Source of the DNA: Paraspadella gotoi
Taxonomy: Eukaryota > Animalia > Chaetognatha
Direction of reading: 5' to 3'
Assembly: GCA_051294375.1 (NCBI GenBank)
Contig: CM119265.1
Location: forward strand, 17,488,018 to 17,552,017
Length of the DNA: 64,000 bases
The position numbers were made by a program, and so were the translations under genes. Positions 28 to 36,128 of the stretch are shown here, piece after piece. A model generated the notes under the pieces. It was not told the origin of the DNA, searched no databases, and saw nothing but the letters and a program-made list of their open reading frames with translations. Positions within the stretch are counted from its first letter, which is position 1. Every line of letters starts with the position of its first letter.

Positions 28-8970
<8,943 letters not shown>

Positions 8971-13737: not shown

Positions 13738-15916
13738 ATGATTTTTCTCCTTACGACGTTATTTATTGCTCACTTAATTTTCTGGCTATTTTATGGGTAA
13801 GTTTCGAAGTGAAATGATATTGAATTGCTTCAGATTATCTCGCCTGGAGTTTTAATCATGATAATTTGAGATTATAATTGATTCATGTTAATTAAGAAGA
13901 CCAATTGTGCTCCGTTGAGACGTTTTGAATATTTTATACTTTAACCCACTAAATAACCCTGCTAGAGGGTCAACTGCTAATTTTAAATTTGTTAAAATTA
14001 TTTTTATTTTTTTTATTTATTTATTTTTTTAATATTTCATGGATGATGACTCTTCTTTTCCTGGGAGCTCCTTCCTAAGCTCCACCTTCGGCCGGTCCTT
14101 TTTTCGTTTCTCCAACAGTTCGTCCGGGAACATCGATGTCTTTCACCCTGAAACGCCAGTCACGAACTTCATCGTCGACCACATGCCCAGACTGCGCCAG
14201 CCCTTCAAGCCGCCCTTATGGGTCCGTAACGGCCATTTGCAGACCTTCGGATTCTGGACGACAAAGTTCAGCAAGGCTGAAGTGGACAGTAGGCGCTACC
14301 GGGTCACGGCTCCGGACGGCGCAACAGTCACCTTTGATGTCTTCGAGCCGTCGCCGGACGAACAATGGGGGATTGGCGTCGACGTTACAGTTTGCCTGGT
14401 GCCGGGTCTCGGCAACTCTGCGGAATCTGGCTACGTCCGATCCTGCGCCAAGTTTCTTCGCAGTTGCGGCTTCCGGGTGGCGGTCCTGAATCACTTGGGT
14501 ACCGTCGCCGAGGTTCCGCTTACCTCGCCCCGGATATTCTGGTTTAATATATTTTATGATTTAACTTTGAATGTATTCACGAAAAACGCATTGTTAGCAC
14601 TCGAGAAAAAATATTCATTAATATATTGATATTTAAAATCCCGTTATCTGCTCATAAGGTCCATTATTATTAGTACTATTTAACACAAAGAATTCTTGCC
14701 TCAGCTATGGAAACACGGAAGAGTACGACTTAATGGTTCGCTGGGTTATCGAGCGCTACTCTGAATCTCTCTTCTTCTCCGTTGGATTTTCGATGGGCGC
14801 TAACATCGTCACCAAGCATTTGGGCGAGCATCACACCGCCAAGCCTTTCCTTGGAGCTCTGAGCGTCGGACAATGGTATGTTCAATTCGATTAGTAGTTT
14901 AAATTCAATTCGATAAAATGTACTGCTCTGCAGAAAGAAAAAATATTAAAAAATAAATATAATTTAAAAAAGGTAAAAAGAACAAAACAATTAACATTCC
15001 GCTGCCCCTACGCTAGTTGGTGAGACACCCCGCGCTCCATTGAAATAAGTTATCCATTTTCTATTCTCTTTTCTCTCTTTTCTTTCTTTATCCCACAGCT
15101 ACGACGCAATCGAGGCATACCGCAACCTCACCCTCCGTCACAAGCCCTACATGTGGGCCATGACGCGAGGAATGAAGAAGTTCCTCAGGGCTCACGAGAT
15201 TCCACTCTTCCTCAGCCCGCGCGCAAGAGACGTCGTCAACGCGAAGAACATCGACGTGGACCAACTCTTCAATGCTAACGATCTTCAGGCTATTGACGAA
15301 AACTACTATCGACGTTTCTGGGGGTTCGCCACGCTAGAGGTTTTCCTTATTCCGAGGAAGAAGAGGAAAAAATTGGCAATAATTGAAGTGAAAACACTTT
15401 TCCATCGCCTCTGAATCAATCCTTCGTTCCACCCGCCGAATTTTTTTTTACGCAGGAGTTTTACACGTCGCAATCGTGTTTCAACTATTTGGCCAACATC
15501 GAGATTCCCATCATGTTTCTCAACGCCCGCGACGATCCGCTAGTGCCGGATCAGCTCATCGATCTCCCTCGCCCGTTCGTCTCCGATTCGGGCTCCGCCA
15601 TCCTCGTCACCACAAAGGTTTTTGTGACTATTTCCGGAGAGAACCCGATTAATTTTTAAGAATTTTACTAGTTTAAATTTCTCATTCCTTTTCGCCGTAA
15701 CAGTACGGGGGTCATCTCGGATACTTCGAAGGAGGTTCCCACACGTGGCTAGAGAAATTCATCGTCGAGTATTGTGATTCGCTGCTTCTTCTGCGACAAG
15801 CGGAGATCGAGGGTGCCGTCGTCACTACGCATGCGCATCGGGACGCTAGCGAAGACGGGAAGGAGAGCGGTTGTGAAGGCCAATCGATCCAAGAAACGAG
15901 CGTATCTTTTGTCTAA
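13738..15916 (+). CDS. ABHD2: Alpha/beta hydrolase, monoacylglycerol lipase ABHD2-like
   Basis: Exons 13738-13796 (TM anchor MIFLLTTLFIAHLIFWLFYG), 14119-14541, 14705-14875, 15099-15339, 15456-15617, 15704-15916. Motifs GHLQT, PGLGNSAESGYVR, VAVLNHLG..LTSPRIFCYG, nucleophile GFSMG, NARDDPLVP and GGHLGYFEG. Confidence 0.9.
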
Positions 15917-17455: not shown

Positions 17456-18744
17456 GATTGGACTCGGAATCGGCACAGAAACGAGAAAATAGTGGTTACG
17501 ATTCTTCCGCAATATTACTTCCAGTCGAGGGACAATGAAAATTTTTTCTCGGGGCTAAAGGCGTCGCGTGCCGCGTGTCCTTTCTGATCTGAAGACTCGT
17601 CCGCCTATATTTCTCTAGTTCTTTCGCTCGTCGCCAACGACAAATGACGTCATGTGCTGCGTCGCGGAGCAGACTAAACGCAGTGGGAGCAGCGCTCGAC
17701 GCCGCTGAGGAAAACATGAGCAAAAGTTCTTGGACTTAACTTAATAAACGAATTATAATTAATTATAATTAATTATAAAACTTACTCAATTTACTAATGT
17801 GAGGGATGGCTTTAACTGGACAGAACTTTGAATAATCTTAGATGATCGAGCTGGTCTGAATTATACCTAACATCCTGATGAAAAACTGTATGTATCATTA
17901 GTTGTTTAGGTTACGTTTCATGCCTTACAACAGATCATACCCACATGTTGAAGGTGTAATTAGACTGTCGTGGAGGGTGAAGTAGTTGTTACGTTAGTCA
18001 GATACATTCTAGATAGCTGCTCGAGTCATGAAATGAATGATCATTTGTTTTAATTGGAGTACCATTCATAAAGGCATTCATATGATTTGTAAAGCGAAAT
18101 ACTTTTATTCTAAATAAATTCATCTGGCCTTCTTTTAGGTTTTGAACAAAGAACAGCCGAATTAAGAAATCTTAAAATAATTATTATTAATAATCTCCTC
18201 TCCCTATTAATAGAGAAAGCTGAAAAGAAAGGTAATGAATAATAGATATCGAGCAATGAATTATAAATGCAGGAAAATTTTTTATTTGTCAAAAATAAAA
18301 GTCCGATGATGAATCTTCGTGAAGGTCTCTAAAACAAAACCAATGTCCATTTTTCATGTCGTTTATGCCCATATAATGGTTCGATGTATTCATTTTATGT
18401 TGTTAAATCTAGTTTTAAATGTATCTTCGGTGGTTAACCCCTCGGTCCCCCCTCAGTCCTCACTGAGCAAGTGGAACACCTATTAAAATATCCGAAATCC
18501 TCACGCCGGTGCGGAACCCGCCAATATCTTTCAATTTCGTCATTTCATTGCTTCTTTTGATTCTAAATTGGAATCGATTTTCCCGAGTAAATATTGACAA
18601 TCCGTTCTTTGCATTCGTTTACTAACTCGTTTCCTCCCGATTTCCTTGTTTTCCCTCTGGCTTTTCGCTTTCATCTCATTCCTTTTAATTTTTTTGCCAT
18701 GAATAAGGCCATATAAGTCAAAAGCACAGTGTCACCAGATTGAG

Positions 18745-21073
18745 ATGTTTCTAAATGTCTTTGTCGTTCTCTTTCTGTTGTCGTCACCGTCATTCTCCTT
18801 AACGACCGACTATCGACCGCCTTTTAACGACCTGCGACCGACAGATAATTCTTTCTTGGATGCGGCGGTCGGCGCGACAACGCGAACGTCGCCTCAACCC
18901 CGTATACACGCCAGCGAGCGATTACGGCGCCCTGGCGACGCCACGGAGAAGTTACGTCGCTTTTTGAAGCGAAACGAGGAAGACGTTTTTCTTACTGGCG
19001 GTGTGGAGGTTGCGTTGACCTTCACTCTGTATCATGTGATAGAATTAAACGAAAAAAGTCAATTTCTCGACACCAACTTTTACGTGTTCCTTGATTGGGT
19101 CGACGAGACTTTGTCATGGCGGCCCGAGGATTTTGACGGCGTCAAATCGGTCATCATGCCGGCCAAATGGACGAGGAAGCCCGACTTGACCATCGTCAAT
19201 CAGTTGGACAAAGGTTTGGATCGTTGTGAAAAGGCTTGATCTTTTATTTGAAATATTTATTATTGGGTTCATAATGAACTTCATATTTAAACTTTGATTA
19301 AAGGTTTTATACTTTATTTTACCGAAAGATTAAAAAAAATCTCTCGGTTTACCATTTACCATTTACCATTACCATTTACCAGTCCACGGCTTTTGGTCCG
19401 ACGACGACGCTCCCACCATGTTATCGAGCGAGGGCCGTGTCTCGTGGGCGCCCACCTTCAAGGGAAGAACCGCCTGCAAGCTCGACGTCGTCTTTTTCCC
19501 CTTCGAAGATCAACAGTGCGAAATCATTTTTTCAACTTGGTTCAGCACCGTCGAGGAAATTCGTTTCAGGCCGTCCAAGGGTCAGTGTGACATAATTTTA
19601 AATAATTTGGACTGGGAGTCAAATATATTGAGAGAGATTAGTCTTTAACAACAACAAAATCACTAATACTTTGAAGGGAGCATAACTATGTACGGGGAGA
19701 AATTCACCGACAATACAAAATGGGAATTGAGCGCCAGTTGCGTCAAGGAGCGAAATCATACCTACCAGACGACGGGAGATTCTTATTCGGAAATTCACGT
19801 TCATCTGTTCATTCGCAGGCGAGAAGGATGATGATCTGACACTATTTTTTTTAAAAACATATTAAAAGTTATTAATGTTTTTGTTCGCTTTCCCCTTTAT
19901 TTCTTATATATACCTCAGAAAGGCGACGTTAGAGGTGTTCAACATTATGCTGCCGGCCTTCCTTATTCTCCTTCAGATCATCGGCGCTTTTTGGCTTCCG
20001 TTGGATTCTCCGGGGAAACCCTCGCTAGGAATGACGGTTTTTCTGGCGGCGACGGTGCAGAGCGCTTCCTTGAACGATCTCACCCCCGCCACCACGCCTT
20101 TTCCCATCGTCGGCGTCTTCCACGCCCTCAACATGGTCGTCGCTACGGCGCAAGTCCTCGCCACCGTTGTGGTTCTCGCCGTCAGGTCCGTTATACCAAT
20201 TTCATTAGTACATCACGGAGGCATTTTTATCAATATTCAAATAACCAAATAACTACATATAGTAATACTGGCGTTCTGTTTCGTTTGTTCTGTTTCGTTT
20301 CATTTCACCTTTTTTGCGCAGATACCAAGGGCATCTAAACACGAAAATGCCGTGGATTTTTGAAAGGTTTCTTAGTCTCTGCTCCGATTCGCTTCTCACT
20401 ACTAAGAAGGCGAGAAACGAAGTGGCTCAGAAGAGGATGAGATTCGATCAGGTGGTCTCTCGTCACTGGCAAACTGATTTGATGGCAGTCTGTCAGTCTG
20501 TTTCATCTTTTATAACTATGGTAAAAATATTAACGATTGATTTTGTGATTATTAAACAGGAAGAAAGAAAGGCAAAGGTGAAAGCGAAAGGCTTTGGATA
20601 TTTGGATCCAGGTAGTTACGAAAAATATTTTTTTGTATTATTACTTAATCATAATTTCTTGCTCTTTTTTCTTATCCTCCCGATCAACTCTTCAGGTGAA
20701 AATGAAATTCGATGGAGGTCACAGGATTTTGGGTGGACTTGGTCCGATAGCGGGGACGGCTTTTCCAGCTTAACCGCTGCCGTTTACGAACAGGTTTTTA
20801 AGCGATAAAACATTTTTTGAAAAACCAAAAACAAAAACAAAAGCGACTTTTCCATCTCCGCAGACGCGATTCAGTCGTCGACGCTGGGAAAAGTCGGATG
20901 AAGCGACGTCTCTCCGGCGCAAGTGGGAGACGTTGGCGATTCGACTCGATCGCCTCTTCTTTTCGGTCATCGTCGTTGTTTATTGCCTCGTCGTCCTCAT
21001 CGTCGTCGTCGAATCTTGTTTCAAGTCTCCCAATCGCAAGAACGTGTGCGGAAAAGAGATCACTAAGTATTGA
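18745..21073 (+). CDS. Cys-loop ligand-gated ion channel, nAChR-like non-alpha subunit
   Basis: Exons 18745-19213, 19383-19580, 19677-19818, 19919-20185, 20322-20451, 20560-20611, 20697-20793, 20864-21073. Signal peptide; WVDETLSWRP; KPDLTIVN; Cys loop CKLDVVFFPFEDQQC; M1-M3; M4 WETLAIRLDRLFF. No vicinal CC in loop C. Confidence 0.9.
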
Positions 21074-22275: not shown

Positions 22276-22462
22276 TATTATTACTAGCTCAAATATATTA
22301 TATTTTATAAACATATACATAAGGTGATAACTAAATTAATTTGAGAGGTTTCGTCTATAGCTAGTACAAAAACACATTTTTTTTACATCTGACTTGCTTA
22401 GAAAATTTTGACAGAGAACTAAAAGTAACAAAGAAGGCCCCAAAAATCACGGGGCAAATTTG

Positions 22463-25400
22463 TCAACACAACTTAAAATTTCTCAGTTGAACGTAACGTC
22501 CGCCGATTCCTTGATAACTCCACCCTGTCTGATTAACATAAAGCCGAAACTTCTTGAAGGGGAAATGGTTCTCTTCGGGAACGCTCAACTCTTCCACGTG
22601 ATGAATCGACAAAAAGGTAGAATCGAGGCGCTTTGCCAAAAGGTCCAACCACGTTGTCCCGTCGTCAGAACCCTGGGAAAGAAGAGGAATCACATTTGAG
22701 GCAGTTGTTGTGTCTAAGAAACGAAAAATGCAGTCAATGTCAATGGGATTCACATAAAATGTCCCTTTTAAGATAAATAAATAGATACATATTTATTATT
22801 TGAATACTGTATAATGTATAATATATAATGTATACTAAATAATGTATACTATATTGTATTCTATAATGTATAGCCATCATTATTTTCTAGACAACGGACA
22901 CGACCGTTTTGATTCATTTATTGATATTTTGATTGAAATGTTTTAATGTCTGGCGAGGGAGAGACTAACTGATCGAAAACTCGTGCTGGATTTGACCTGC
23001 AAGACGAAAGTCATCGGGTGGTCAAGTTTGTAGTAGGACTGCCAAGTCGTCATGAACGAAATGCGACGGGCGATTCTCTTCTCAATGAATTCGACCCCTA
23101 TATGTTGAGGCTCATTCAACCATCCTAAGAAGATATATTTAAATATTTTATCGTTTTTCATTAACGACGTATTAATCAATTGATTAATCTAGAGGCTCAC
23201 CATTAGTCGCTTCCACCCATCGGCTGGACCACGAATAGCTCTGCCCGCGGAAAGCAAACTTTTCTACCCAGCTTCGTCCCCAGCTGAAACAGATAATGAT
23301 AAAATTAAAATACGATGATCAATTAATTATTTAGTTTTTATGTCGATTAAATACAAATCAATAAATGAATGAAGCAATAAACCAACCGGTGCGTAACCAA
23401 TCTACCTAATAATCAAGGTATCTATGAATCAGTTAATCAACCAATCAATCAATCAAATTCTTTATTAATTCGTTCGTACTTTCTATGTAAATATAAATAA
23501 TTACATAAATCGACTCAGTAAACATTCACTAATACATTTATTTTTTTTTTACTCAATTTATGTGTTAATTTTTTACTTAATTAAACTCACCTCGACGAGG
23601 CGAAGGTCTGGTGCTTCAAAAATGGGGGACTCATCACGTAGTTATCGTCGTCGCGACTTTCTTGATCGTCGTAGAGACACAGACCAAAATCGCCAATCTC
23701 TACGCTACCAGTGACGTTGCTCAAATCGCCGCCCCAAACGGCCCCGGTAACGAGGAGGCGGTAGTGCCGGTAGGCGCCCCGGTCTTTTACTTTGAAGTGG
23801 CGCCGCGACGGCGCTTCAGAGGGCGCTGAAGTCTAGGGGCGGGGAAAGAGGTGCGAAGTGACGGATTGTCAAAAATTGGAAAAAATATGGGCAATTGGTA
23901 TTTCTTTAAAAAAGATTTTTTTACTCCACTAGAACAATTCAGAGGAGAATATAGTTTTTAAGTAGTTAAGATCATATTCGTGTAAACTAAACAAAAGTTG
24001 GATTGTTCCCAAGACATTCATTGATAAAGTTAAAGAAAGAGATAAATTTATTGAATAGAGAGTGAGAGAGATACCTGCATGTTCTCTTCGACAACGTCCA
24101 ATCGGACCCAAGAGTCACCATCTTGTGAAGCTTCAAACTCGAACCGAGTAACGTCTCTGGACTGGAAATGAAAGGCTCCAACGGTTCTGACGCCACCCGG
24201 GTAAGTAACGCTCACCCAAACTTGGCCGGTTGAAATATCGGAGCTATTAAGGGTCACCGAGCGCCACTGTCGAGACTTCTGAACCAAGGATTTTGAAATT
24301 GAACAATTTTTTGGGGGGTAAATTTAATATAATAACAAAACCTACAAAATTAAATAGCAATCTGAACAAACAAAAAAAAAAACTGTATTTCAAAATTATA
24401 TTCAACAATCGATTCCTCCCGGCCCTCCCCCGAAAAAAAAATAAATTAACCCGAAAGATTTCGGCGGCTTTTTCGATGTTGGAACTGACACTCGCTACTC
24501 CGTCGGTATTGGGACATGGGCGAATCGACTCGCACCATATTTGCGTTTTGAGCCGCCAAAGTTTGTTTTTGTTCCCTCTGTCGCCGGTTCTGCGGAGAGA
24601 GGGAGAAAGAGAGAAAGTAGTATGAGAGAGATAAAGAGAGAGCGCCTCAGACACTGATTTAACAACAATAGTATAAAATTGAAAAATTGAACTCTTATGT
24701 AGTTTCTGGTACTACAATGGGAATTCCCCTCTCTTTTCAAATCCACTGACTGATTTTGATTGATGTTTGACCATTTCAATAGCGGGAAAATTTTTTTTTT
24801 TTTTTAAGATCCAATATTTTTTAATAAAAATTTCTCTTTTTAACATTAAGGAACTCTTCAAATAATAGAATTTTCCTTTTCCAAAATTCTATTATGACAT
24901 TTATAGTCATATATTATTGGGAATTAAAAGAAAATAACGTCAGTGATTTTTGTACCAGGATACAAAACCTGAAGTCACTATTTTATCTGAAATATAGCTA
25001 CAGTATTTAATCTTTTCATTTCAGTCGCCAATGTTTGTGTATAGTGTGTCTACTGTGTACACGTAGAATCTTCAATTATGTAAGTATGCATTTATCCGTG
25101 AAGCTTATGCCTTTTGGCCGTGAAAAAAATATTTATGAGGCCGACTAACCGAGGAAGTCGTCCGTCATCGTCGGTGACGTCTTTGATGTCGATTTCCCAG
25201 TCGTTGAATTTGAATTGACTGCAAGATCGTCCCCGGTCGTGCCCTTGATCGTCGCACTGGTCACCTGGAGAATCGAAACAAGAAAAGGGGAGAAACAGAA
25301 TCACAACCCGGAAAATTGGAGAATCAGAACAAAAAAATGGGAGAATGAGAACAGGGTAAAGGGGGAATAAGTACAAGAAAATCATAATAAGGAAATTGGA

Positions 25401-25729
25401 GTGACAAAACAGAAAACTGACGAATAAAAAATATGAAAAAAAAAACACGAAAATCAAAACAAGAAAACTGAAAAATAATAATTAAAATAAGAAAATAAGA
25501 GATTGGAAAAAAAAAAACCCGGCGACTTTGAATATGGAAACGGTAGGAAATGTTAAAGAAAACGGGAGATTCAGAACTGGGAAATGGGAGAATTGGTTTA
25601 TTGGAGAGTAAATTCACTGTGACAATCTGCACACAACAAATTCTTTCACATTATGTACTTACCGCGAATACATTTAAAAAACATAAGAAATAAAGTAGTA
25701 AAAAATATTCCGTATCTGACGAACGCCAT
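22463..25729 (-). CDS. Secreted protein with two F5/8 type C (discoidin/galactose-binding-like) domains
   Basis: Eight phase-compatible exons starting with signal-like MAFVRYGIFFTTLFLMFFKCIRG (25729-25663). Motifs FEFEASQDGDSWVRL..GAYRHYRLLVTG and PQHIGVEF..PMTFVLQGSDDGTTWLDL..FKKFRLYV..YVQLRNFKLC-TGA. Confidence 0.72.
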
Positions 25730-26625
25730 GACTGACGTAGATGTCTAAAGTCCAACTATGACGTCGGATCTCAAAAATAAGTTACTGAGTGACTTTCAAG
25801 TACCGCAAAAGTTATATTTTACACGTAAACTCTGAAATATAAAAAAAGTATTTTAATGTGATTATCATATTAATTAATTGAACTATGCCAATTTATTAAA
25901 CAATGCAATTTTTTGTTAAAATTCATAAATATCTATAATTTATAGGTTCTTTATTAGCAGTTAAATTCTAACAGACATACGGTAAGTTTTAATTTAGAAA
26001 AAAAAATGACAGTCGGTATATCTGCGCTCAAGATTATCGCCGAAAGTTCCATTTCTTAAGATGTTTAATCAAGACAAACATTAATCGAGTTTCCAATTAA
26101 AATTCGGCTCGATTTTCTTCATTATACTTATTTGTAGACTTCAGCCTTGAACGCGGCTAATAGAATTAATTATACGATTTGCTTCGATAAAAAAATGTTC
26201 ATCACAAAAGGATGACTTATTCTAAACTCAGATTGTATTGAGAAGAATATCCCCTTTTATACATTCTCTCTATGATCGATCCTCAAAGATTTAAATGATA
26301 ACACCTTTGTTTTTTTTTTTCATTTCTCTTCACGCATGTAATGGAGAAAACCTAATTTTCTCATATTTACTCATCCTGTCTCCAATAAAGGAATTTCTAA
26401 ATATAGAACATCGACGTGATCAAGAGTATGACTCAGAAAAAGATAAGATCACCTTTGCTTTATAAACGTATAGTTATCGGGAAATACTTCCGTCTTTCGC
26501 AGACTGAATAAAATCTTAAACAATAAAAATAATTTCATAAAAAAAAAAAAACAATAAAAAACAATTTCACGGACAAAAAGAAAAAAAAATCGCGTGCTCT
26601 TCTTGACAAATTCAAGACGGAAAAG

Positions 26626-29600
26626 ATGATGTTAAACGTGTTAAGTTTTTTACTTTTTCTGATGTAAGTAACATTAAGTAACATTATGCTTTTCCCCCGT
26701 GGAAAATACTTCGCATAATTTAAATCATGAATCTCTATCTTACACGAAAAGGTTCTTCTCGTCGTCATTGGCGTCCGACGTCTTTCACGAAATTTTCCGT
26801 AACAAAAACAACGCTTGGCAATTCACTGACTGCAGTTTAGTGGATTACGAGGGAAAAGCCAATAGAACGAAAGATGGGGTTCCGTGTTTGAAGTGGAGCG
26901 AAGCTTACAGTGCCAACGCCAGGTTAAAGAAAATGGATCTTCGTTTAGAAACAATCACTGATGATTACCAAGTGTTTTCTATTGTTATTCTATCATTGCC
27001 AAAGATCGTCAAAAACTTGTCATTATTTTTCGTTTCCATCATCATTTATTTATTTTATTCTATATTTCCACCTTTTTAACTCATTTTCCATTTCTTTCGT
27101 CAATTCATTTTTTTAAATGAAAAATGGCGTGTTAAGACTTAATCCCTATTACAAGATAATAACATAGAAGGAACTTACAAGCTTTCAATCTCTTGATTGA
27201 AATCGAGTTTATTCACTCCCAGAGGACCTGGCTTCCTTATTATATTAATTTACCTTTTTTAGATTAACCAATTAACCAATAACCATACTACTTAGTACTT
27301 ATAGTAGTAGTATACTTATATTATATTATATCATTTAAGAATAAACCAGAATCGTTCATGCTTGACCAATCAGGATTCGGCGATTCCATTTCCTGCGGAG
27401 ATCGCCCGAGCCTCCGATCCGATTTGATTCTGGTGGCTTGATACTCCTGCGATGATATTTTTAAATTCCTCTTTCCGGTTCCAGTTTATCGCTAGGACGG
27501 AAATCTCCTTTGAAATTACATTTAGCTTATTTCTCACAACTCTTGTCATTTATGAAATTGGTACAACCAATATAAAAATTATCCATTCATTAATAAATAA
27601 GCATCTTGCCCCTGACTTTGGACAGGCTTTGGTGGTTTAAGGCCTCCATCACTCTTACAAGATAATGACATAGCAGGTCCCTGCAAGCTTTCAATCAAGA
27701 CTCTCTCACAGTCTCGTTTATTCACTCCCAGAGTACCTGGCTTCCCTATCAATGAAGTGGTATAATATTTCAAAGAATGTTTCAATTGTATGAAAAGACC
27801 ACTCCCTTAAGTATTAGATCGGGGAATACTTATTGTACTCCGCACTAGCATCAAAATACAAGGAGCTGAATTTTATGAAATTGGTAAAAATTATCCATTC
27901 ATTTAATAAATAAGCTATCTTGCCCCTGACTTTATGTTATAACCACCAAAAAGAGAGAGAAAAAAAGAAAAATAAGCAGCCTACTGATGGCTCTTGCTTT
28001 CAGGATCCGAAATCTAACTCGCCTTCTGACTCCGCACGACTTGAAGACTTCCTTCTGCCGCAACCGCGATCACGACCCTCTCGGCCCCTGGTGTTTCTCC
28101 GCCGACTCCCCCTCCTCCTCCTCCTCGTCCGTGTCCTATTGCGACCTCGGTGCCGATTGCCACCCCCACCGTCTGAAATGCAAGCGGAGTCGACTCGGCC
28201 TCGAATATCGCGGCGACAAAAACGTCACGCTGTCAGGTCGGCCATGCGCTGCATGGAAGGGACGCATGGCGGGCCTGGACGCGTCCATCGCCTTCGCCGA
28301 CAATCGATGCCGGAATCCGGATGGGGATCTCGGCGGTCCCTGGTGCTACGTGGACGAAGAGGGCGTGACCGGCGCCGATTGGGAGTCTTGCGGCGTCGAG
28401 TGGTGTCCCGGGTTTCGAATCGTGATCGATGCCCACGGGTCCACCGTCCCTGGGGCCGCTTGGGAGATGACGACCTTTGACGCGCCCAAGAGGATCGTCC
28501 GTTTCGAATTGAAGGCTGGAATCGGGCGAGGATCCGATCCGCTCCTCAGGCCTCGCAACATCGCAATCGCTGGGAGCAACAGTCCGAACTGCGATCGAGA
28601 TTTCATCGTGGTGCAGACTGTCGCCGGGAACGCGTTCAAGTCACAAATGGAGAAGCAGTTCGTCCACATTTCAGAACCCGGCCACTTCGTTTGCTACAAC
28701 GTCAGCGTGGAAGGCGTCCACAATCCCGAGGCCGCGGACCCGCACACCAGGCTCTTCAGAGATTTGGTTCTGTGGGAAAACTTGGCGGAAATGGACGAGA
28801 CGCACCTGATAGACGAGGCGCTGCTGAGAAAGGCCGATTCCATTCTGACTACGCGGAGACAACTTCCCCAAAGCGTCGTCATCGATTTTGGAAATCCCAC
28901 TTATGTTACACATTATTCCTTCAAACCCAATCGAAATGTCAGCTACAGATTAGAAGGTACTATTTCAAGTTTTTTAATGGCAATCCAAATAATTTAATTG
29001 ATTATCATTCTCGCATGATTATCACCCGATGCAAATTGTACCAGGATCCTTACGCAAAGATTGCAATAACGCAAGCAACGACTGGATGCTTCTCGACCGT
29101 CGACAAAAATCAACCACTTTCACTCCCTTCGAGACTCGATCGCACAGCATCTCCCACAATCCTCGATCCTTCAACTGCTTCCGCCTCACGTTTGAGAGCG
29201 ACCCCGCCGTCCCACGGTATCAAGACTTTCTCACCATCAAAGACCTCCGCCTCAACCAGTCCGTCGGCGAAGTGTTGGCCAACGAAATTTGCGGTCGTCG
29301 CGTCGTCCAGCAGGATGTTTTCAACGACCCCGCTTCGGGTAGGATCCTGGGCGGCGTCTCCTGTCAGCGCGGCGCTTGCCCATGGCAGGCGTCCCTGATG
29401 TCTCCCGATGCAGTCTCCTTTTGCGGCGGGAGCGTCATCGACGATCGACACGTCCTCACGGCTGCCCATTGTTTCTATCGTAATGGAGTGAAGATGAGCG
29501 ATGATAAAGTCCGTCAGACGATGGTGGTTTTAGGCAAGACGGATCTGACGGCGGCGCAAGATTCCGCGCAGACCCACGTCATCGAAGACTTCGCGTTGCA

Positions 29601-32600
29601 TCCACATTTTGATGTCGACAAATTCGTCAACGACGTCGCCGTCCTTCGCCTGAGAGACAAGATCCTTTTCAACGCTCACGTGATCCCCATCTGTCTACCC
29701 GCGTCCGACGGTGCCGATTCCAATATCACCGACGCTTGGGTCTCGGGGTGGGGGATCAGAGACGTCGTAGACGACCACTTCGTGATGCCCAACGAATTGC
29801 AAGTGGCGGTTATCGAAACCACGTCCACCGCGGAGTGCGCGGAACGGTGGAAGAAGTTTTACCAGAAGGACGACGACGACAGATGGCAATGTGCCGACGA
29901 TACCGATGACGACGACGATGATCTGACGAAGGGCTTCTTGTTTGACGGTATTTTCGACGAAGGTGAGTTAAAAATAAAGCGATAATAATGTGTGGAGATT
30001 AGATAAGATTTTAAAACTAGAAAGTAAAAGATAATCAGAGAGAGAAAATCCGTCTCAAAAAATATTCATTTTATCTATGGTTCTATTTCCTAACAGAGAA
30101 GCGTATCTGCAAGAAGATCGATGAAAACGTTATTTGCGCGGGTGGTCATCTCATCGATACCTGCAATGGTGACTCTGGTGGCCCATTAGCTGCGTTTGAT
30201 AATGGTCAGCGTTTTGTTCAGGTCGGAATAGTCAGTTGGGGTGTTGCTTGGAGCCACTGCGGAAAAGTAGGAATGCCCCCAGGAGTGTATACCAGAGTGT
30301 CTTCGCACCTTCATTGGATTCGCGAATTCATTGAAACTAAAAAAAGAGATCCTCAATTAAACGTTTGCAAAAAGTTCGAGTTCCAATGCTCAAATGGATG
30401 GTGTCTCTCGAGTGAACGAGTCTGCAATGGCATCGAGGATTGCAAGGACGGCCTTGACGAAGCCGGTTGTCACGATCCATTACACATCTGCGGAGAACCC
30501 GCTTGGAGGTTGCCTCCATCCAAGGCAAAGTTTGACCCCATCCTCGACGATCCGTGGATGGCGGTCGTTTTTGAGAAGGGTTGGGAACCTAGGTGCCCGG
30601 GGATTATCATCGACGAGCTCTTCGTTCTCACGAGTGGCAGATGCTTCTATCCATCGGAAAAACCGTCGAATTTTTTTGTTCAAACCGGAAATAGTTCGCG
30701 GATGGACGAGCCATCTCGTAGATTGGGAAGCGTCCTGGGTATAGAACGAATCTCGCATTTTAACGGATTCTCTCTTTTACGCTTGAAGTCCGCGATCAAG
30801 TTTTCCGGACGACGACGACCAATTTGTCTTTCATCCTTTGAATCGAGCGACAGGTATGATCGAAGGGCCGTCGGTTGGATTCGCGTGAAGAGACGACCTT
30901 TGAGTTTAGTGCTAATGAATGACACTGTCTGTTCAGAACGGAATCGAAGATTTGTGGGGAACATTTGCGGTGAGCCAATAGGTATTTCGCGACACCCGGG
31001 AGCATACGGAAGGGGAAATGCCATCGTAGCTTATAAGAATAGTCGCGCCTATCTCTATGGAATCGTTAACAGCGAAGAACACAAAACCGGCAGAGTTTTC
31101 AGTTATACCAAACTGACGGCAGAGGTCACAGACATGATCGCTTCTAAAATGATCAACATCACACCGACCAGATGTCCCGAAGGACTTTTCCAGTGCCCCA
31201 GCGGCGTCTGTCTCGATATGGCGAGGCTTTGCGACGGCTTCGATGACTGTAAAGGAGGCGCCGACGAGCTCGAATGCACGCCGTGGCCAAATGCCTGCCT
31301 GTCAGTAATGTGTTTCAATGGCGGAAAATGCCAAATGTCTCCCGATGGATTGCCTACTTGCATCTGTCCGCTCGGCTACGCTGGCGACCGTTGCCAGGTG
31401 GACATCGATGACTGCGTCAACGTTACCTGCCATTACCGTGCCAAATGTCGCGATGGCGTCAACGGCTCCACTTGCATCTGTCCTCCCGGAACCGAAGGTC
31501 GCTTCTGTGAGCGCGACCGCAATGAATGCGCTTCCAATCCTTGCCGCAACGGAAGATGCATAGACGGGTTCGATTCTTTCCACTGTGATTGCACCAATTC
31601 TACGTTCAAGGGAAAGTTCTGCGAAATCGAACTCACAACCTGTGAGTTTTTGAGTCCCTGCAAGAACTGGGGGGTGTGTCGCGACCTGCCGACCCGAAAC
31701 TACACCTGCGCCTGTCGCGACGGCTACGTCGGTGAAAACTGCGAGATTGATGTCGACGAATGTGCGTCCAATCCGTGTCTAAACGGCGCCACCTGTCGAA
31801 ACGAGATTGGCAAGTTTTTGTGCGATTGCCGTCTTGGGTTTAATGGCACCAAATGTGAAACGGAAATCAACGAGTGCGAAACGGAAAAAGTGATTTGTCA
31901 CAAAGGTCATTGTGTGGATGAGGTCGGAAAGTTCAGCTGCAACTGCTCCAAAGGATTCACCGGAAAATAGTAAGTAATTTATTACCTGGACCTGACGTTA
32001 CTATGGCAAAGATTTATCTTTATTATTTATTTACGTATTATTATTTTTCTGCTTTACGTATGTATTAATTTTTTTAATCTTGCTTTATTTTTAATACGTC
32101 ACTTATTACGGTACACTTTAAAAATACGACCAAATAATTTTTTTTCAAAATTTAGTTTTTATGACAAATAATGACGATTTAAAGAAATAGAAAAAGACTC
32201 GATACTAACATTACGTAATGACAACTAATTCCTGTTCGATCCTTTAACTTCATTCACCTTCTCACCCCTCGGCTCCTGTGTGTTCGCAGCTGCGCCAAAG
32301 AGATTGAATACTGCGAATTCGTATCTTGCTACCATGGATATTGCCAGGATCGACCAATCCTCCGGCCCTCTGACAAGGGCTACTCTTGCAGCTGCGACCG
32401 CGCTGCCAGAGAAAAGTATGACCAGTCCACCGACTGCAAAGTGCACCCGATGACCGGGAAGCAGGACCTCGAAGGCCCCGCTGGGGGCGTTCTGTTCGCT
32501 ATTACCGAGACGGGTCTCGACAATATCGTGGAATATTTTCGACGAAAATTTGTCAAGGAGATGGAAACCTTTAAGTTCGACAAGATGGACAACATTCGGG

Positions 32601-35600
32601 GCAGAGAATCCATCTTTGACGTGAATGAAGAATACGAGATCAGGTTAGATGTGAAGGGATGACGAGTAGAGTGGAGTCTCGAGAATTAAAAAAAAATTAT
32701 TTGACGCGAGATAGTATGACGAACCTTTAAAAAAAATATTTAGTTTATATTGTTTGGGGGAAAAGAACCGTAAAATACAAATTATTTATATAGAATGGAA
32801 AAATTTAAAAGTAATTTTTTGGAAAATTTTCATTGAAGATTCAGATTTTTCAGAAAAAGTTAAACCAAAAATATAAAACATATTATCAAAAATTCTGTCA
32901 TCTTCAACATTAAAAAGGGGAAAAAGGCGAAAATTCATCATTTTTTTTCTTGAAGTTTCGTAGTATTAACTCGTCATAAGTTTTTGGATTTACTATTATA
33001 CATGCTGAAACATTTTAATTATTTTTTATTGTCTATATAACACATTTTATAAAAAAATTTTTATTTATGATTTTATAAATAAAAAATCGAATTTGCTATA
33101 CTTCTAACAGAGGGTATACAAATGAGATTGAGGAACTCAATCTCATTTTAGATAATTCACAAATTAATCTGCTATATACTGTTATGCTAAAAATTTTTTT
33201 TAAAGGATTTAAATTTCATTAATTACATGTACAAAGGCAGCAAAAAATAACGTTCAATCGCTTTTCATCATTTAACCCTAATGACCAGGACCTTTGCGAA
33301 TAAATTTTGGTGCAAAGTAAGAAGAGAAACTTAAACAGAAAAACGAAAAGAAGGAAGAGAAGAGAAGGAAGAGAGCAACGAGAACGATCACAAAAACAAA
33401 AACAGCGACAAAAAAAAACAAACAAAAACGATAGCTATTAACAACATTAATCATACTTATATTTGTAATTCATTTTGAAATCTGCCCAATCTTCACAAAG
33501 CTTCGACGACATAGCTATCGTTCCGTCGAGTTTTGATGTCGATCCACCGAGAGTTCGCCTCACGAATCGAGAGGGTTTGGCGGTGGAGGTCGTTGCCTCT
33601 TGCACCATCATCGGAAAATGGTAAGTCCTTGGGTGTTTATCGCGGGTTAGAATGCAGCATCCGCAGAGATAGCCAACAATGTGATAAAAATACGTAATGT
33701 AATTACGTAGAAAAGTCTGTTCAAGTTTGTCCGTTTATAAAGGCAATTGATTCTTCGTTCCGACGGGCTTGAAGATTTTCGAGACGACGGTCGCATTGAA
33801 CTTCGCCTCGAACGCTTCACCGTCAAACTTAACTTCCGCATCGGCGAGGACGAGACCACCGAGTGCGATATCATCGTCGGAAGCCTCGACGCCGAGATAA
33901 AAGATTCCATGTTCGACTTTGTCTATCAATTCTTCATCGACATTTTTAAGAAGAAGATAAAGGAAGAGATACCAAGTAAGTAAAGCCTAAAGGGTCAATA
34001 TATTTTCTACATTTATCGATCTGCGATTCTTTCGATTTCTCAGAGGCCTCGTGCGGCACCATCAGCAAACGATTTGACAAACTGTCGAACATCTTCTCCC
34101 AACTTCCGAGTGGGTTTAACTTCAGCATGAAGAACGAAAATGGTCAAATCTCCAACTTTTCCGTCGACCTCACGCCGTCCAAAAGATACATTACTAGAGA
34201 CGCGATTGTTCACAACCTCGTTGGCGAAGTGAGGAATGGAGATTCCAGTTTTTTTTAATAGAAAAACAATTGAATAGTTTTTACGTTTGTAACACAGCTT
34301 CGTTCTGTGAGGGATTCCCTCAAGACATACGCGGGCGTGCCTCCGTCGCCCTTTCCGCGGATTCGTCAAGACTTTGACGTCGTCGTCGTCATCAACGAAT
34401 ATTGCATCAACCGAGTTCTTCACGTTCTGCAGCAAGAGGGTTTCGCAGATGGACGGCTGCACCTCGACGATGATAGCGGCCCGCTGCAAGCCATCTCCGT
34501 GGTCTGCGAACAGCTGGACATCTGCAGCGGGGAGGAAGATTGCTGTAAAAGTCTGTCAAACCCCAGCATTAGGTGGACTCTGCTCTCGCCGCCAGAAATC
34601 ATCATAAAAAGGGGTGGAATCAAACTGAAGATTCCGAAAGTCTCGTTGGTTGTCACTGTCTTCGTCGGCAACGAAGGAAGGAACGTGACGGTTCTTGACA
34701 ATGATTTGCTCGTTGCCGCCGACGGTACGGAAGCGGGGCCCAGGTTCCTTTAAACATTTAATATATACAGAAGGCTTCATATTAAAAAAAAATATTTTTT
34801 TCCTTTTTTTCTTTTTCCCCCCCTATTTTTTCTTATTTTCTTATTTCTTTTTTTTTTTTTGAAAAGAAAACAGAGCAACCAAATTATAATAATTTCTTAT
34901 TATAAAATAAGATGGTGTGGCGAATCCTAAATTCGCCTCCCGTATAGCTTCGTGAAACTCAGCTTGTCCCATTAGCTTGGATAGCTAAGTACTCGTTCAC
35001 CAACCGTGAGTTCCGGATTTAATCCCCTCAGTGTGATGATGCCGGCATAAACACGCCAGTAAGGTGGTCAGTGGTCACTGTAGGTGAACACCTCATACTA
35101 CTGGACCAAATTCATTGAAATTTGGTGTGAACGATCCCATTGTGAATACAAATAGAACTATCGATGCGAATTTCAATGTTTGACCCCTGAGCCGAGATAT
35201 GGTCAATTTTTTTTGGTTTTGAACAGTTGTGAAGACGTTTACTTTTCCACAAAAATATTAGTTTACCTTAATTTTCATGAACATCAGCGTTTTAAGTCAG
35301 ATTAGAAATAATTTGGGAAAATAAGAAATAAAACGATGAACCATGCATCTTCAAACAATGCTTAATTATTATAAAATTATTAATTTTAGTTCTAAAATGA
35401 TTTTTTTTTCCAATGCTCCTGATGCTACTAAATTTTTTTAGCCTTTTTTTGCCCCCCAGGGATCCAGCCCTAAGGATTGAATATCCAAATTCGCCTCGAT
35501 AGTTCAATTGATGTCGTCATATGTAAAATTTCATTAAATTCGATCGGGTAGTTTGGTGGGAACAGATACTGGTCACAAAAAACCACCTCATTTTATAATA

Positions 35601-36128
35601 TGAAGTCTTGTTGAAAAAAAAAAAAAAATCAATTGGTTACAATTTTCTTACCATATCTTTTCAAATCTATTGCCTACTGATTAATCGCGAGACGCTTGCT
35701 TCTTCCAAAAAAAAAAAAAAAAAAAATTTCATCAAAACCTTTCTTATCCTTCAGTGCGCATTCAAGTAAATCGCGAACGAGCCCACTCCGGAAACGCCCT
35801 CACCAACATCTGGGCGTCCATCGATATCCAACGACCTCGCGTTCTCACCCTAGCGACTCGTTTGGCCACTCCCACGGGCTCTGACGAAGAAATCTGGACA
35901 AGTTTCATCTCCGTTCTCATAACGGATTGGTTGCGACCAAGTCTGACGAAATTCGCCGAGAATCAACTCGATATCCTGAACAATATGAAGGAAAACTTTC
36001 ACCTAGATCAAATCGCGATGGACATGAGGATCGCCAACGACGTGGACGGGGTCACCCTGAAGGACATGGAGATTCGCGCCGTTGAAGGATCGCTCTACGT
36101 TGGGGTCGATGTGGAGCGAAAGAGTTAA
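26626..36128 (+). CDS. Mosaic secreted serine protease fused to a BPI/LBP module (SP-2xKringle-2xF5/8C-like-Trypsin-LDLa-pseudo-trypsin-LDLa-7xEGF-BPI1-BPI2), ~1881 aa
   Basis: Exons 26626-26663, 26752-26922, 28004-28956, 29045-29962, 30097-31969, 32290-32643, 33501-33620, 33743-33975, 34044-34228, 34298-34724, 35755-36128; all junctions GT-AG and phase-compatible, total 5646 nt. Kringles FCRNRD..PWCF and CRNPDG..PWCY; activation R-ILGG; triad TAAHC / NDVAVL / GDSGGP; LDLa FQCSNGWC..DCKDGLDE; BPI-like GGVLFAITETGLD, INEYCINRVL..QEG, GSLYVGVDV. Confidence 0.85.
27152..27932. repeat. Fragments of a dispersed repeat family in intron 2 of the mosaic protease
   Basis: CAAGATAAT..CAAGCTTTCAATC..TTATTCACTCCCAGAG.ACCTGGCTTCC occurs at ~27152-27236 and ~27658-27745. 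TTATGAAATTGGTA..AAATTATCCATTC..TCTTGCCCCTGACTTT occurs at ~27550 and ~27873, and TTATGAAATTGGTACAACCAATATAA recurs at ~63968. Confidence 0.65.
34898..35600. mobile_element. MITE-like element carrying a tRNA-derived SINE-like head (~34965-35040)
   Basis: Imperfect 18-bp inverted ends TATTATAAAATAAGATGG / CCACCTCATTTTATAATA. Internal A-box-like TAGCTTGGATAGCTAAG and degenerate B-box-like GGATTTAATCCC. Confidence 0.5.

What the first reader, a model, noticed from the sequence alone, without database searches (positions are those of the whole stretch)
26626..36128. Giant mosaic serine protease fused to a full BPI/LBP module: candidate single-chain microbial-lipid-sensing protease
Seen in sequence: an 11-exon open model (~1881 aa) joining signal peptide, 2 kringles, 2 F5/8C-like domains, a trypsin with intact H/D/S, LDLa, a dead trypsin homolog, LDLa, 7 EGF repeats and a two-lobed BPI/LBP-like region. 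The 7th EGF and the BPI start (GGVLFAITETGLD) lie in one exon (32290-32643) with no signal peptide between them, so the join is not a gene-model artefact. A Cys pair (TTEC / KASC) sits where the BPI N-lobe disulfide is expected. Established: BPI/LBP/CETP/PLTP proteins bind LPS or lipids and are normally stand-alone; horseshoe crab Factor C and insect ModSP are modular proteases that trigger immune cascades using other recognition modules. Inference: this could couple LPS or lipid recognition directly to zymogen activation. I know of no described protein with this architecture.
Basis: partly seen in the sequence, partly recalled or inferred. Interest (0 to 1): 0.92.

Follow-up and report, generated by a model that had tools for sequence, protein, structure and literature searches.

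The report
Protease fused to BPI-like lipid binder
An animal gene, found spliced across the key join in a public sequencing contig, encodes one 1,881-residue chain that links a trypsin-type protein cutter to a likely BPI-type lipid-binding module, a pairing not found in the searches made, and it likely works as a protease switched on at lipid surfaces, though probably not through the classic bacterial-LPS grip.

Summary
The gene is real. Eleven exons (26626-36128), ten GT..AG introns, one open frame of 1881 aa. One 6175-nt contig of run X1, from another haplotype, carries all 9 junctions in the stretch laid, including 31969/32290, so protease, EGF stalk and BPI-like region share one spliced chain. 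Kringles, live trypsin (H529, D584, S720, S1 Asp, R487-ILGG), two LDLa, a dead trypsin and EGFs are confirmed. The first F5/8C-like domain is supported. The BPI call is likely (about 0.9) but not proven: Atlas 0.94 for the C-lobe piece, Pfam E 0.17 for the N-lobe piece, cysteines 40 apart as in human BPI; both folds failed. No trypsin-plus-BPI protein turned up in 84 long proteases, a published list of 77 trypsin-gene domains, or 10 paper searches; InterPro could not be searched. Best reading: a zymogen docked on lipid surfaces and activated by clustering. The dead protease is the strongly basic part.

The parts
26626..36128 (+). whole gene: exons 26626-26663, 26752-26922, 28004-28956, 29045-29962, 30097-31969, 32290-32643, 33501-33620, 33743-33975, 34044-34228, 34298-34724, 35755-36128; 1881 aa
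   Evidence: open frame, 10 of 10 introns GT..AG; 9 of 9 laid junctions in run X1
26626..26773 (+). likely signal peptide, aa 1-20 (exons 1-2); no other membrane-length hydrophobic stretch
   Evidence: hydropathy maximum at aa 1-19; cleavage site is inference, no SignalP available
26831..28406 (+). two kringles, aa 40-122 and 129-204, six Cys each; both keep a D-x-D pair, neither keeps the arginine of the lysine-binding site (site recalled from plasminogen)
   Evidence: Pfam Kringle E 4.6e-19 on exon 3, E 0.002 on exon 2; sequence
28407..29262 (+). two F5/8C (NedA/CBM32-like) beta-sandwich domains, aa about 205-330 and 335-460, each with one Cys pair
   Evidence: first: Atlas 0.93-0.95 to F5/8C clusters, recognition 2796; no Pfam match; second: pattern only, BLAST to the first E 0.16
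29341..30341 (+). trypsin-family protease, aa 488-775: activation site R487-I488, H529, D584, S720, S1 D714 with G742 and G756; C470 placed to link the chains; about 40 extra acidic residues with an extra Cys pair (C670, C698) in the 170-loop
   Evidence: Pfam Trypsin E 4.5e-32 and 7.8e-23; best solved relatives factor XI, X, kallikrein, MASP-1; loop length 97 against 48-80 in 90 other domains
30366..30470 (+). LDLa repeat 1, aa 784-818
   Evidence: Pfam Ldl_recept_a E 5.7e-14, 2 stretches
30489..31151 (+). catalytically dead trypsin homologue, aa 825-1045; His, Asp and Ser motifs all replaced, no activation motif; strongly basic (net +13, pI 9.8)
   Evidence: Pfam Trypsin E 3.5e-8; sequence; most basic of 76 trypsin domains compared
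31173..31277 (+). LDLa repeat 2, aa 1053-1087
31296..32437 (+). seven EGF repeats, aa 1094-1367, four with calcium-binding-type starts; the sixth Cys of EGF6 is supplied by exon 6 across the 31969/32290 splice
   Evidence: Pfam EGF 6 stretches E 1.5e-25; EGF7 by six-Cys pattern only
32480..34108 (+). likely BPI/TULIP N-lobe, aa about 1382-1575; C1517 and C1557 40 apart; acidic, no cationic tip
   Evidence: Pfam LBP_BPI_CETP E 0.17 on exon 8 at profile positions 117-152; spacing and charge; weak collinear match to a bacterial BPI-like profile
34355..36125 (+). likely BPI/TULIP C-lobe, aa about 1635-1881; ends without membrane anchor

Best explanation
The gene makes one spliced 1881-aa chain with an intact trypsin-type catalytic triad, which is likely secreted as an inactive precursor, likely docks on lipid-rich surfaces through a C-terminal BPI-like module on a seven-EGF stalk, and would switch on when docked copies cluster and cut one another at R487. 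Shown: single chain up to exon 10, domain order, triad, S1 Asp matching the Arg at its own activation site, dead basic second protease, acidic BPI lobes. Inferred: secretion; lipid binding in the two BPI pockets by hydrophobic fit (phospholipid, sterol or lipoprotein lipid rather than lipid A caught by charge); help from kringles and F5/8C domains in binding proteins and glycans; activation in trans as in other initiator zymogens; the cut N-terminal chain staying attached by C470-C604; the basic dead protease acting as a cofactor or as a clamp on the acidic 170-loop insert. The likeliest job is starting an extracellular defence or wound cascade; tissue and substrate are unknown.
For: Contig across 31969/32290 and no cover of intron 5. 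Triad, R-ILGG and S1 D714. Closest solved relatives of the protease are cascade enzymes, factor XI E 3e-23, factor X, kallikrein, MASP-1, though any trypsin scores near these. BPI-like tail. No membrane anchor. Opposite charges of live (-19) and dead (+13) protease. Ligand-driven self-activation is shown for Factor C (PMC10672452, passages) and Manduca HP14b (PMC10643904, passages).
Against: No activity, binding, tissue or induction data. The BPI fold was not shown by structure: two single-sequence models had pLDDT 35. The Atlas recognition value for exon 10 (1965) is below the tool's 2300 mark, so that hit is weak by its own rule, and the family covers only 17-52% of the members of the top three clusters. 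The bacterial-profile alignment was beaten by 1 of 44 shuffles. Trypsins gain and lose partner domains freely, also in gland-cell enzymes of a sea anemone (PMC6767649, passages), so the mosaic does not prove a cascade role. No orthologue with the same layout was found, so conservation gives no support.
Confidence: 0.45

Rival explanations
1. A true single-chain LPS sensor-protease, a functional counterpart of horseshoe crab Factor C: lipid A enters the BPI pocket, with the positive charge supplied not by the BPI tip but by the basic dead protease or the basic C-lobe strand, and binding triggers activation.
For: BPI-like module and self-matching activation site in one chain. The dead protease is the most basic of 76 trypsin domains compared (+14) with two +6 windows; a +5 window lies in the C-lobe at aa 1716-1736. 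Dead, basic trypsin homologues that bind LPS (azurocidin, crayfish masquerade-like protein) are recalled, not from a call; the search for azurocidin passages listed 0 papers.
Against: The N-lobe tip, whose overall positive charge is kept in mammalian and squid LPS binders (PMC4620459), is net +1 to -1 here, the neighbouring loop -6, and no 17-residue window of the N-lobe exceeds +3.
Confidence: 0.15
2. A Nudel-like developmental, reproductive or digestive protease: the BPI module targets it to egg coat, yolk lipoprotein or food lipid, with no role in defence.
For: Live protease, LDLa, dead protease recalls Nudel (layout partly recalled); Nudel domains gave the best single-sequence scores for both proteases among the 84 hits (E 2e-24 and 6e-11). 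An LBP/BPI protein is passed to snail eggs (PMC3868517, listing and start of abstract). Acidic lobes suit neutral lipid carriage.
Against: The query held an LDLa repeat, which enriches Nudel among the hits. The tree leaves both domains unplaced on long branches. Only 2 LDLa, no membrane segment, against 4 or 8-10 LDLa in insect Nudel (PMC4085338, passages).
Confidence: 0.2
3. A co-delivery precursor: the chain is cut after secretion and the protease and the BPI-like part then act apart, with no coupling of lipid binding to activation.
For: Long stalk between the two; a K-K-R site at aa 775-777 right after the protease and two R-x-K/R-R sites (aa 956, 975) in the dead protease.
Against: No R-x-K/R-R or dibasic site in the linker between EGF7 and the BPI start; the furin-like sites fall inside a folded domain.
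Confidence: 0.13
4. The fusion or the BPI label is wrong: two genes merged by the model, or a C-terminal region of another fold.
For: No BPI exon passes a Pfam cut-off or matches a solved BPI by sequence; X1 is only guessed to be RNA and is a single run; an in-frame TAG follows exon 5 if unspliced.
Against: One contig skips nine introns at GT..AG ends; exon 6 starts inside EGF6; the only Met before the BPI start (M1372) has no signal-like stretch; N-lobe and C-lobe signals come in the right order, over the right length (500 aa), with the Cys pair 40 apart.
Confidence: 0.07

Closest known systems
BPI / LBP / CETP / PLTP family (double TULIP; Pfam PF01273 + PF02886)
   Same: About 500 aa, N-lobe then C-lobe signals, Cys pair 40 apart as C135-C175 of human BPI.
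   Different: Family members are mostly stand-alone secreted proteins of 350-500 aa; the only fusion named in the passages read is to PqiA in protists (PMC5507252, passages). Here the module ends a 1881-aa protease, has no signal peptide of its own, and is acidic with no cationic tip.
Horseshoe crab Factor C
   Same: Mosaic trypsin-family zymogen that carries its own recognition part (PMC10672452).
   Different: Factor C has a Cys-rich region, EGF, five CCP, LCCL and C-lectin before a C-terminal protease and binds LPS by an R-W-R motif or CCP modules. None of CCP, LCCL or lectin was found here; the protease is internal.
Insect ModSP / MSP / HP14
   Same: LDLa-bearing initiator zymogen that activates itself when microbial ligand is present (PMC10643904).
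   Different: Four LDLa, CCP, Cys-rich domain, C-terminal protease; needs separate recognition proteins. Here two LDLa follow the protease and candidate recognition domains are built in.
Nudel
   Same: Giant protein with LDLa repeats around a live protease and (recalled) a second dead protease-like domain; best single-sequence scores among the hits.
   Different: No kringle, F5/8C, EGF stalk or BPI; more LDLa and often a membrane segment (PMC4085338); orthology not supported by the tree.
Kringle proteases (plasminogen, HGF-like, SVH-1/Tequila-like)
   Same: Kringles N-terminal to a trypsin domain; SVH-1-like proteins are among the hits (3 of 84 carry PF00051).
   Different: Those end at the protease; here 1100 aa follow it.

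Membership tests
S1A trypsin-like protease (active) | His-Asp-Ser triad in standard motifs | tested here: met
   H529, D584, S720; Pfam Trypsin far above cut-off
S1A trypsin-like protease (active) | Activation site and Arg/Lys-specific S1 pocket | tested here: met
   R487-ILGG; D714, G742, G756 (chymotrypsin-number assignment from established knowledge)
S1A trypsin-like protease (active) | Measured proteolytic activity | not testable with these tools
   needs protein
BPI/LBP/CETP family | Two tandem TULIP lobes by sequence profile | tested here: inconclusive
   N-lobe Pfam E 0.17, 12 bits against cut-off 28.8, on a 77-aa exon; C-lobe Atlas 0.92-0.94 but recognition under the mark; only single exons could be scanned; bacterial profile weak
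BPI/LBP/CETP family | Conserved N-lobe disulfide (C135-C175 in human BPI) | tested here: met
   C1517 and C1557, 40 apart, C1517 inside the Pfam match; bond itself inferred
BPI/LBP/CETP family | Boomerang fold with lipid pockets | tested here: inconclusive
   single-sequence model of exon 10 pLDDT 35, not searched further
BPI/LBP/CETP family | Stand-alone secreted protein of 350-500 aa | tested here: not met
   module is the end of a 1881-aa chain; so it is a BPI-like domain, not a typical member
LPS-binding LBP/BPI proteins | Cationic tip of the N-lobe (residues 86-102) | tested here: not met
   net +1 for aa 1468-1484 (mapped by the disulfide), -1 for 1471-1494, -6 for 1415-1440; lobe -10
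LPS-binding LBP/BPI proteins | Binding of LPS or lipid A | not testable with these tools
   needs protein
Factor C | Cys-rich region, CCP x5, LCCL, C-lectin, C-terminal protease | tested here: not met
   none of these Pfam families on any of 10 exons scanned
ModSP/HP14 | Four N-terminal LDLa, CCP, C-terminal protease | tested here: not met
   two LDLa, both after the protease; no CCP
Nudel | Protease domain groups with Nudel | tested here: inconclusive
   quick tree, both domains unplaced on long branches
F5/8 type C (discoidin/CBM32-like) domain | Profile or feature match | tested here: inconclusive
   first domain Atlas 0.93-0.95, recognition 2796, shared features 141-164 (under 170); no Pfam match; model failed; second domain untested by Atlas

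The most novel reading that the evidence does not exclude
A one-chain microbial-surface sensor-protease invented by an under-sampled animal lineage: F5/8C domains read glycans, a BPI double TULIP takes up microbial lipid, a basic dead protease supplies the polyanion grip that the BPI tip has lost and clamps the acidic loop of the live protease until ligand frees it. It would be a third solution to pattern-triggered proteolysis beside Factor C and ModSP, and the first protease built on a TULIP lipid pocket.
Probability: 0.22. Interest if true: 0.88.

Novelty: new variant of a known kind. Interest (0 to 1): 0.63.

Why it matters
BPI/LBP proteins are known almost only as free lipid binders and trypsin-family cascade starters use other recognition modules. 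A spliced gene that puts both in one chain makes a direct question testable with one recombinant protein: can a TULIP pocket aim or trigger a protease, and with which lipid? If microbial lipid triggers it, it is a new initiator design and a possible Factor C-like detection reagent; if host lipid does, it is a new kind of lipoprotein- or membrane-targeted protease. The BPI module here escapes Pfam on the exon pieces scanned, so like fusions may be hidden in other genomes. The weight is limited by its being, so far, one gene in one species in a family known for free domain shuffling.

Tried and rejected
No genome assembly is held for the window, so paralogues were sought only in the window: none by tblastn. 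No run on record as RNA was listed; X1 is a guessed RNA run. X2 and X3 gave only short low-complexity matches. Exon 10 against longer proteins: 0 of 351 candidates scored. Solved-structure sequence searches with BPI exons 6, 8, 10, 11: no BPI relative, only chance hits. NCBIfam: nothing relevant. AlphaFold on single sequences of exon 10 and the first F5/8C domain: pLDDT 35 both, so no fold search was run. Metagenome scans with exon 10 and the protease, and a prokaryote scan with the EGFs: no relative. Profile from 30 Myxococcota-group loci matching PF01273 (the best 30 offered of the matches in 84 of 401 genomes): the BPI region scored 3.9 bits against a best of 1.5 among 500 shuffles and 0.8 among 116 stored proteins; by hhalign E 0.033, probability 1.5%, 207 collinear columns over both lobes, beaten in score by 1 of 44 shuffles and 0 of 44 real decoys, longest control alignment 123 columns: weak, kept as minor support. 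Trypsin tree (74 domains from 36 of the 84 proteins, picked by hand for variety, plus the two query domains; quick search only): unresolved, so origin of the dead protease by internal duplication is neither shown nor excluded. The sensitive whole-library protein search and the complex predictor were not available, so distant animal relatives of the BPI part and docking of the dead on the live protease stay untested. A bacterial promoter scan of intron 5 is not meaningful for an animal gene. Host lineage: the ABHD2-like neighbour is 34-48% identical to 32 hits, the named ones all animals, and groups only with one unnamed protein; lineage left open. Paper searches for such a fusion (on azurocidin) listed none describing it; most listed papers were seen as title and start of abstract only, and subscription papers are not covered.
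Full report
Observation. The region 26626-36128 holds eleven GC-richer exons (0.47-0.59 apart from the short first) between AT-rich introns. With ends 26626-26663, 26752-26922, 28004-28956, 29045-29962, 30097-31969, 32290-32643, 33501-33620, 33743-33975, 34044-34228, 34298-34724 and 35755-36128, all 10 introns are GT..AG and the frame is open for 1881 aa.

Is it one transcript? Three coded runs were offered, none on record as RNA; X1 holds 0.58 of the sampled words. Laid on 26000-34800, X1 has one 6175-nt contig at depth 19.3 that follows exons 2-10 in order and skips the introns at GT..AG ends. Eight joints are listed, among them 31969 to 32290, and the ninth follows from adjoining record positions; the exon 1 and exon 7 pieces are read from joints of the same depth and from gaps in the record numbering that fit them. 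A contig that skips nine introns can only come from spliced RNA, whatever the run's label. It differs from the window at four bases (two silent, I713V, D1073N), so it is another haplotype. Unspliced, exon 5 would stop at TAG 31968-31970 and leave EGF6 one cysteine short; intron 5 has no contig cover (observed 5.89 and 11.7, expected from exon bases alone 5.91 and 11.69).

Domains. Only single exons could be scanned. Pfam gives Kringle (E 4.6e-19), Trypsin (4.5e-32, 7.8e-23), Ldl_recept_a (two stretches) and EGF (six stretches), and Trypsin for the second protease (3.5e-8). EGF7 rests on its six cysteines. The first domain after the kringles resembles F5/8C or NedA-like galactose-binding domains in the Atlas (0.93-0.95, recognition 2796); the second is similar by pattern only (E 0.16). 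The live protease has H529, D584, S720, an S1 aspartate (D714) and an R-ILGG activation site, so its pocket fits its own activation bond (numbering from established knowledge). Its nearest solved relatives are factor XI, factor X, kallikrein and MASP-1. It carries about 40 extra, very acidic residues with an extra cysteine pair in the 170-loop: the GWG-to-GDSGG distance is 97 against 48-80 in 90 other domains, and the contig confirms the splice inside this insert. The second protease has lost all three catalytic motifs and the activation motif and is the most basic of 76 domains compared (+14).

The BPI call. Exon 8 matches Pfam LBP_BPI_CETP at profile positions 117-152 with E 0.17, below cut-off. 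Exon 10 draws LBP_BPI_CETP_C clusters at 0.92-0.94 with 176-184 shared features, and 10 of the 10 best named hits share the family or clan; but recognition (1965) is under the tool's mark and the family covers 17-52% of the members of the top three clusters. C1517 and C1557 are 40 apart, as C135 and C175 in human BPI (PMC4620459, passages). The region is 500 aa long with N-lobe before C-lobe signal. A profile of 30 bacterial BPI-like proteins aligned collinearly over 207 columns through both lobes, but weakly. The motifs at the start of the module and at the very C-terminus resemble BPI from recall only. Folding failed and no solved BPI was matched by sequence. I put the double-TULIP reading at about 0.9.

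LPS sensing. In mammalian LBP and BPI and in squid LBP1 the most cationic patch lies at the N-lobe tip, residues 86-102, and its overall charge is held to matter for LPS binding (PMC4620459). Mapped by the disulfide, that stretch is net +1 here; the whole hairpin 1471-1494 is -1, the other likely tip loop 1415-1440 is -6, the N-lobe -10 and the C-lobe -9. The defining feature of LPS-binding members is thus not met. This lowers 'it is an LBP/BPI-type LPS sensor'; it does not lower 'it binds lipid'. The basic surfaces of the chain are on the dead protease and on one C-lobe strand.

Mechanism. Shown: one chain, domain order, triad, matching S1 and P1, charges. Inferred: a secreted zymogen (hydrophobic N-terminus, no anchor) with binding modules at both ends. 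Seven EGFs keep the BPI module far from the catalytic domain, so direct allostery is unlikely; docking and crowding on a lipid surface, followed by cutting of neighbours at R487, fits the anatomy and has precedent in ligand-driven activation of Factor C (PMC10672452, passages) and HP14b (PMC10643904, passages). The opposite charges of the two proteases suggest that the dead one restrains or assists the live one; this could not be modelled. I give this reading 0.45, a true LPS sensor 0.15, a Nudel-like reproductive or digestive role 0.2, a precursor cut into independent parts 0.13, and a wrong fusion or fold 0.07.

Known or new. None of 84 trypsin-like proteins of 1092-3115 aa (from 1042 candidates) carries PF01273 or PF02886, and none matches the BPI region directly; the tool warns that such a blank is weak. 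The list of 77 Pfam families in the trypsin genes of a cross-animal survey has kringle, F5/8C, LDLa and EGF but no LBP/BPI family (PMC6767649, passages and supplement 1 part 1 of 2); the same paper finds that trypsin partners are gained and lost continuously. A TULIP review describes CETP/BPI proteins as mostly secreted proteins of 350-500 aa, names a PqiA fusion, and never uses the words protease or peptidase (PMC5507252, passages). Nine paper searches aimed at the pairing or its parts listed no description; most hits were seen as listings only. Earlier notes of this scan hold nothing on this genome or sequence. The host is an animal with no close relative among named proteins.

Verdict. Observation confirmed and strengthened by a spliced contig; interpretation partly supported. 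A new variant of the mosaic trypsin-family zymogen, with a domain pairing not found in these searches, in one species so far. Interest 0.63.

Noticed in passing
window 36873-57152: A 6-7 kb block with a Onecut-type homeodomain exon occurs three times in tandem at 87-89% identity with 400-600 gap letters per pair, the copies separated by 25-N gaps; copies 2 and 3 are frameshifted. Likely noisy long reads left in the assembly, not real paralogues. The protease gene lies outside it.
   Followed up: partly
window about 22400-25450, minus strand: Head-to-head neighbour, about 1.2 kb from the protease start, encodes at least two F5/8C-like domains (Pfam F5_F8_type_C E 0.0086 at 24051-24323; similar motifs at 23590-23832 and 22466-22792). 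Possible co-regulated lectin-like partner; no gene model built, little similarity to the protease's own F5/8C domains.
   Followed up: partly
window 27129-27930 (intron 2): Repeat element: a direct repeat about 506 nt apart and very high contig depth in run X1 (up to 56067).
   Followed up: no
window 14135-15799, plus strand: ABHD2-like lipase gene, 34-48% identical to 32 database hits; groups only with unnamed protein P0086 (support 99, quick tree).
   Followed up: yes
window 18703-20805, plus strand: Cys-loop ligand-gated ion channel gene (Neur_chan_LBD E 1.3e-13, Neur_chan_memb E 2.4e-8).
   Followed up: no
window 3538-4356 and 4624-5745, plus strand: Two long serine-rich open frames (273 and 374 aa) with no Pfam match.
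   Followed up: no
L040-L069: PF01273 matches in 84 of 401 genomes of a Myxococcota-centred sample, mostly in open frames of about 1000 aa or more: bacterial BPI-like proteins are common and usually part of longer chains.
   Followed up: partly
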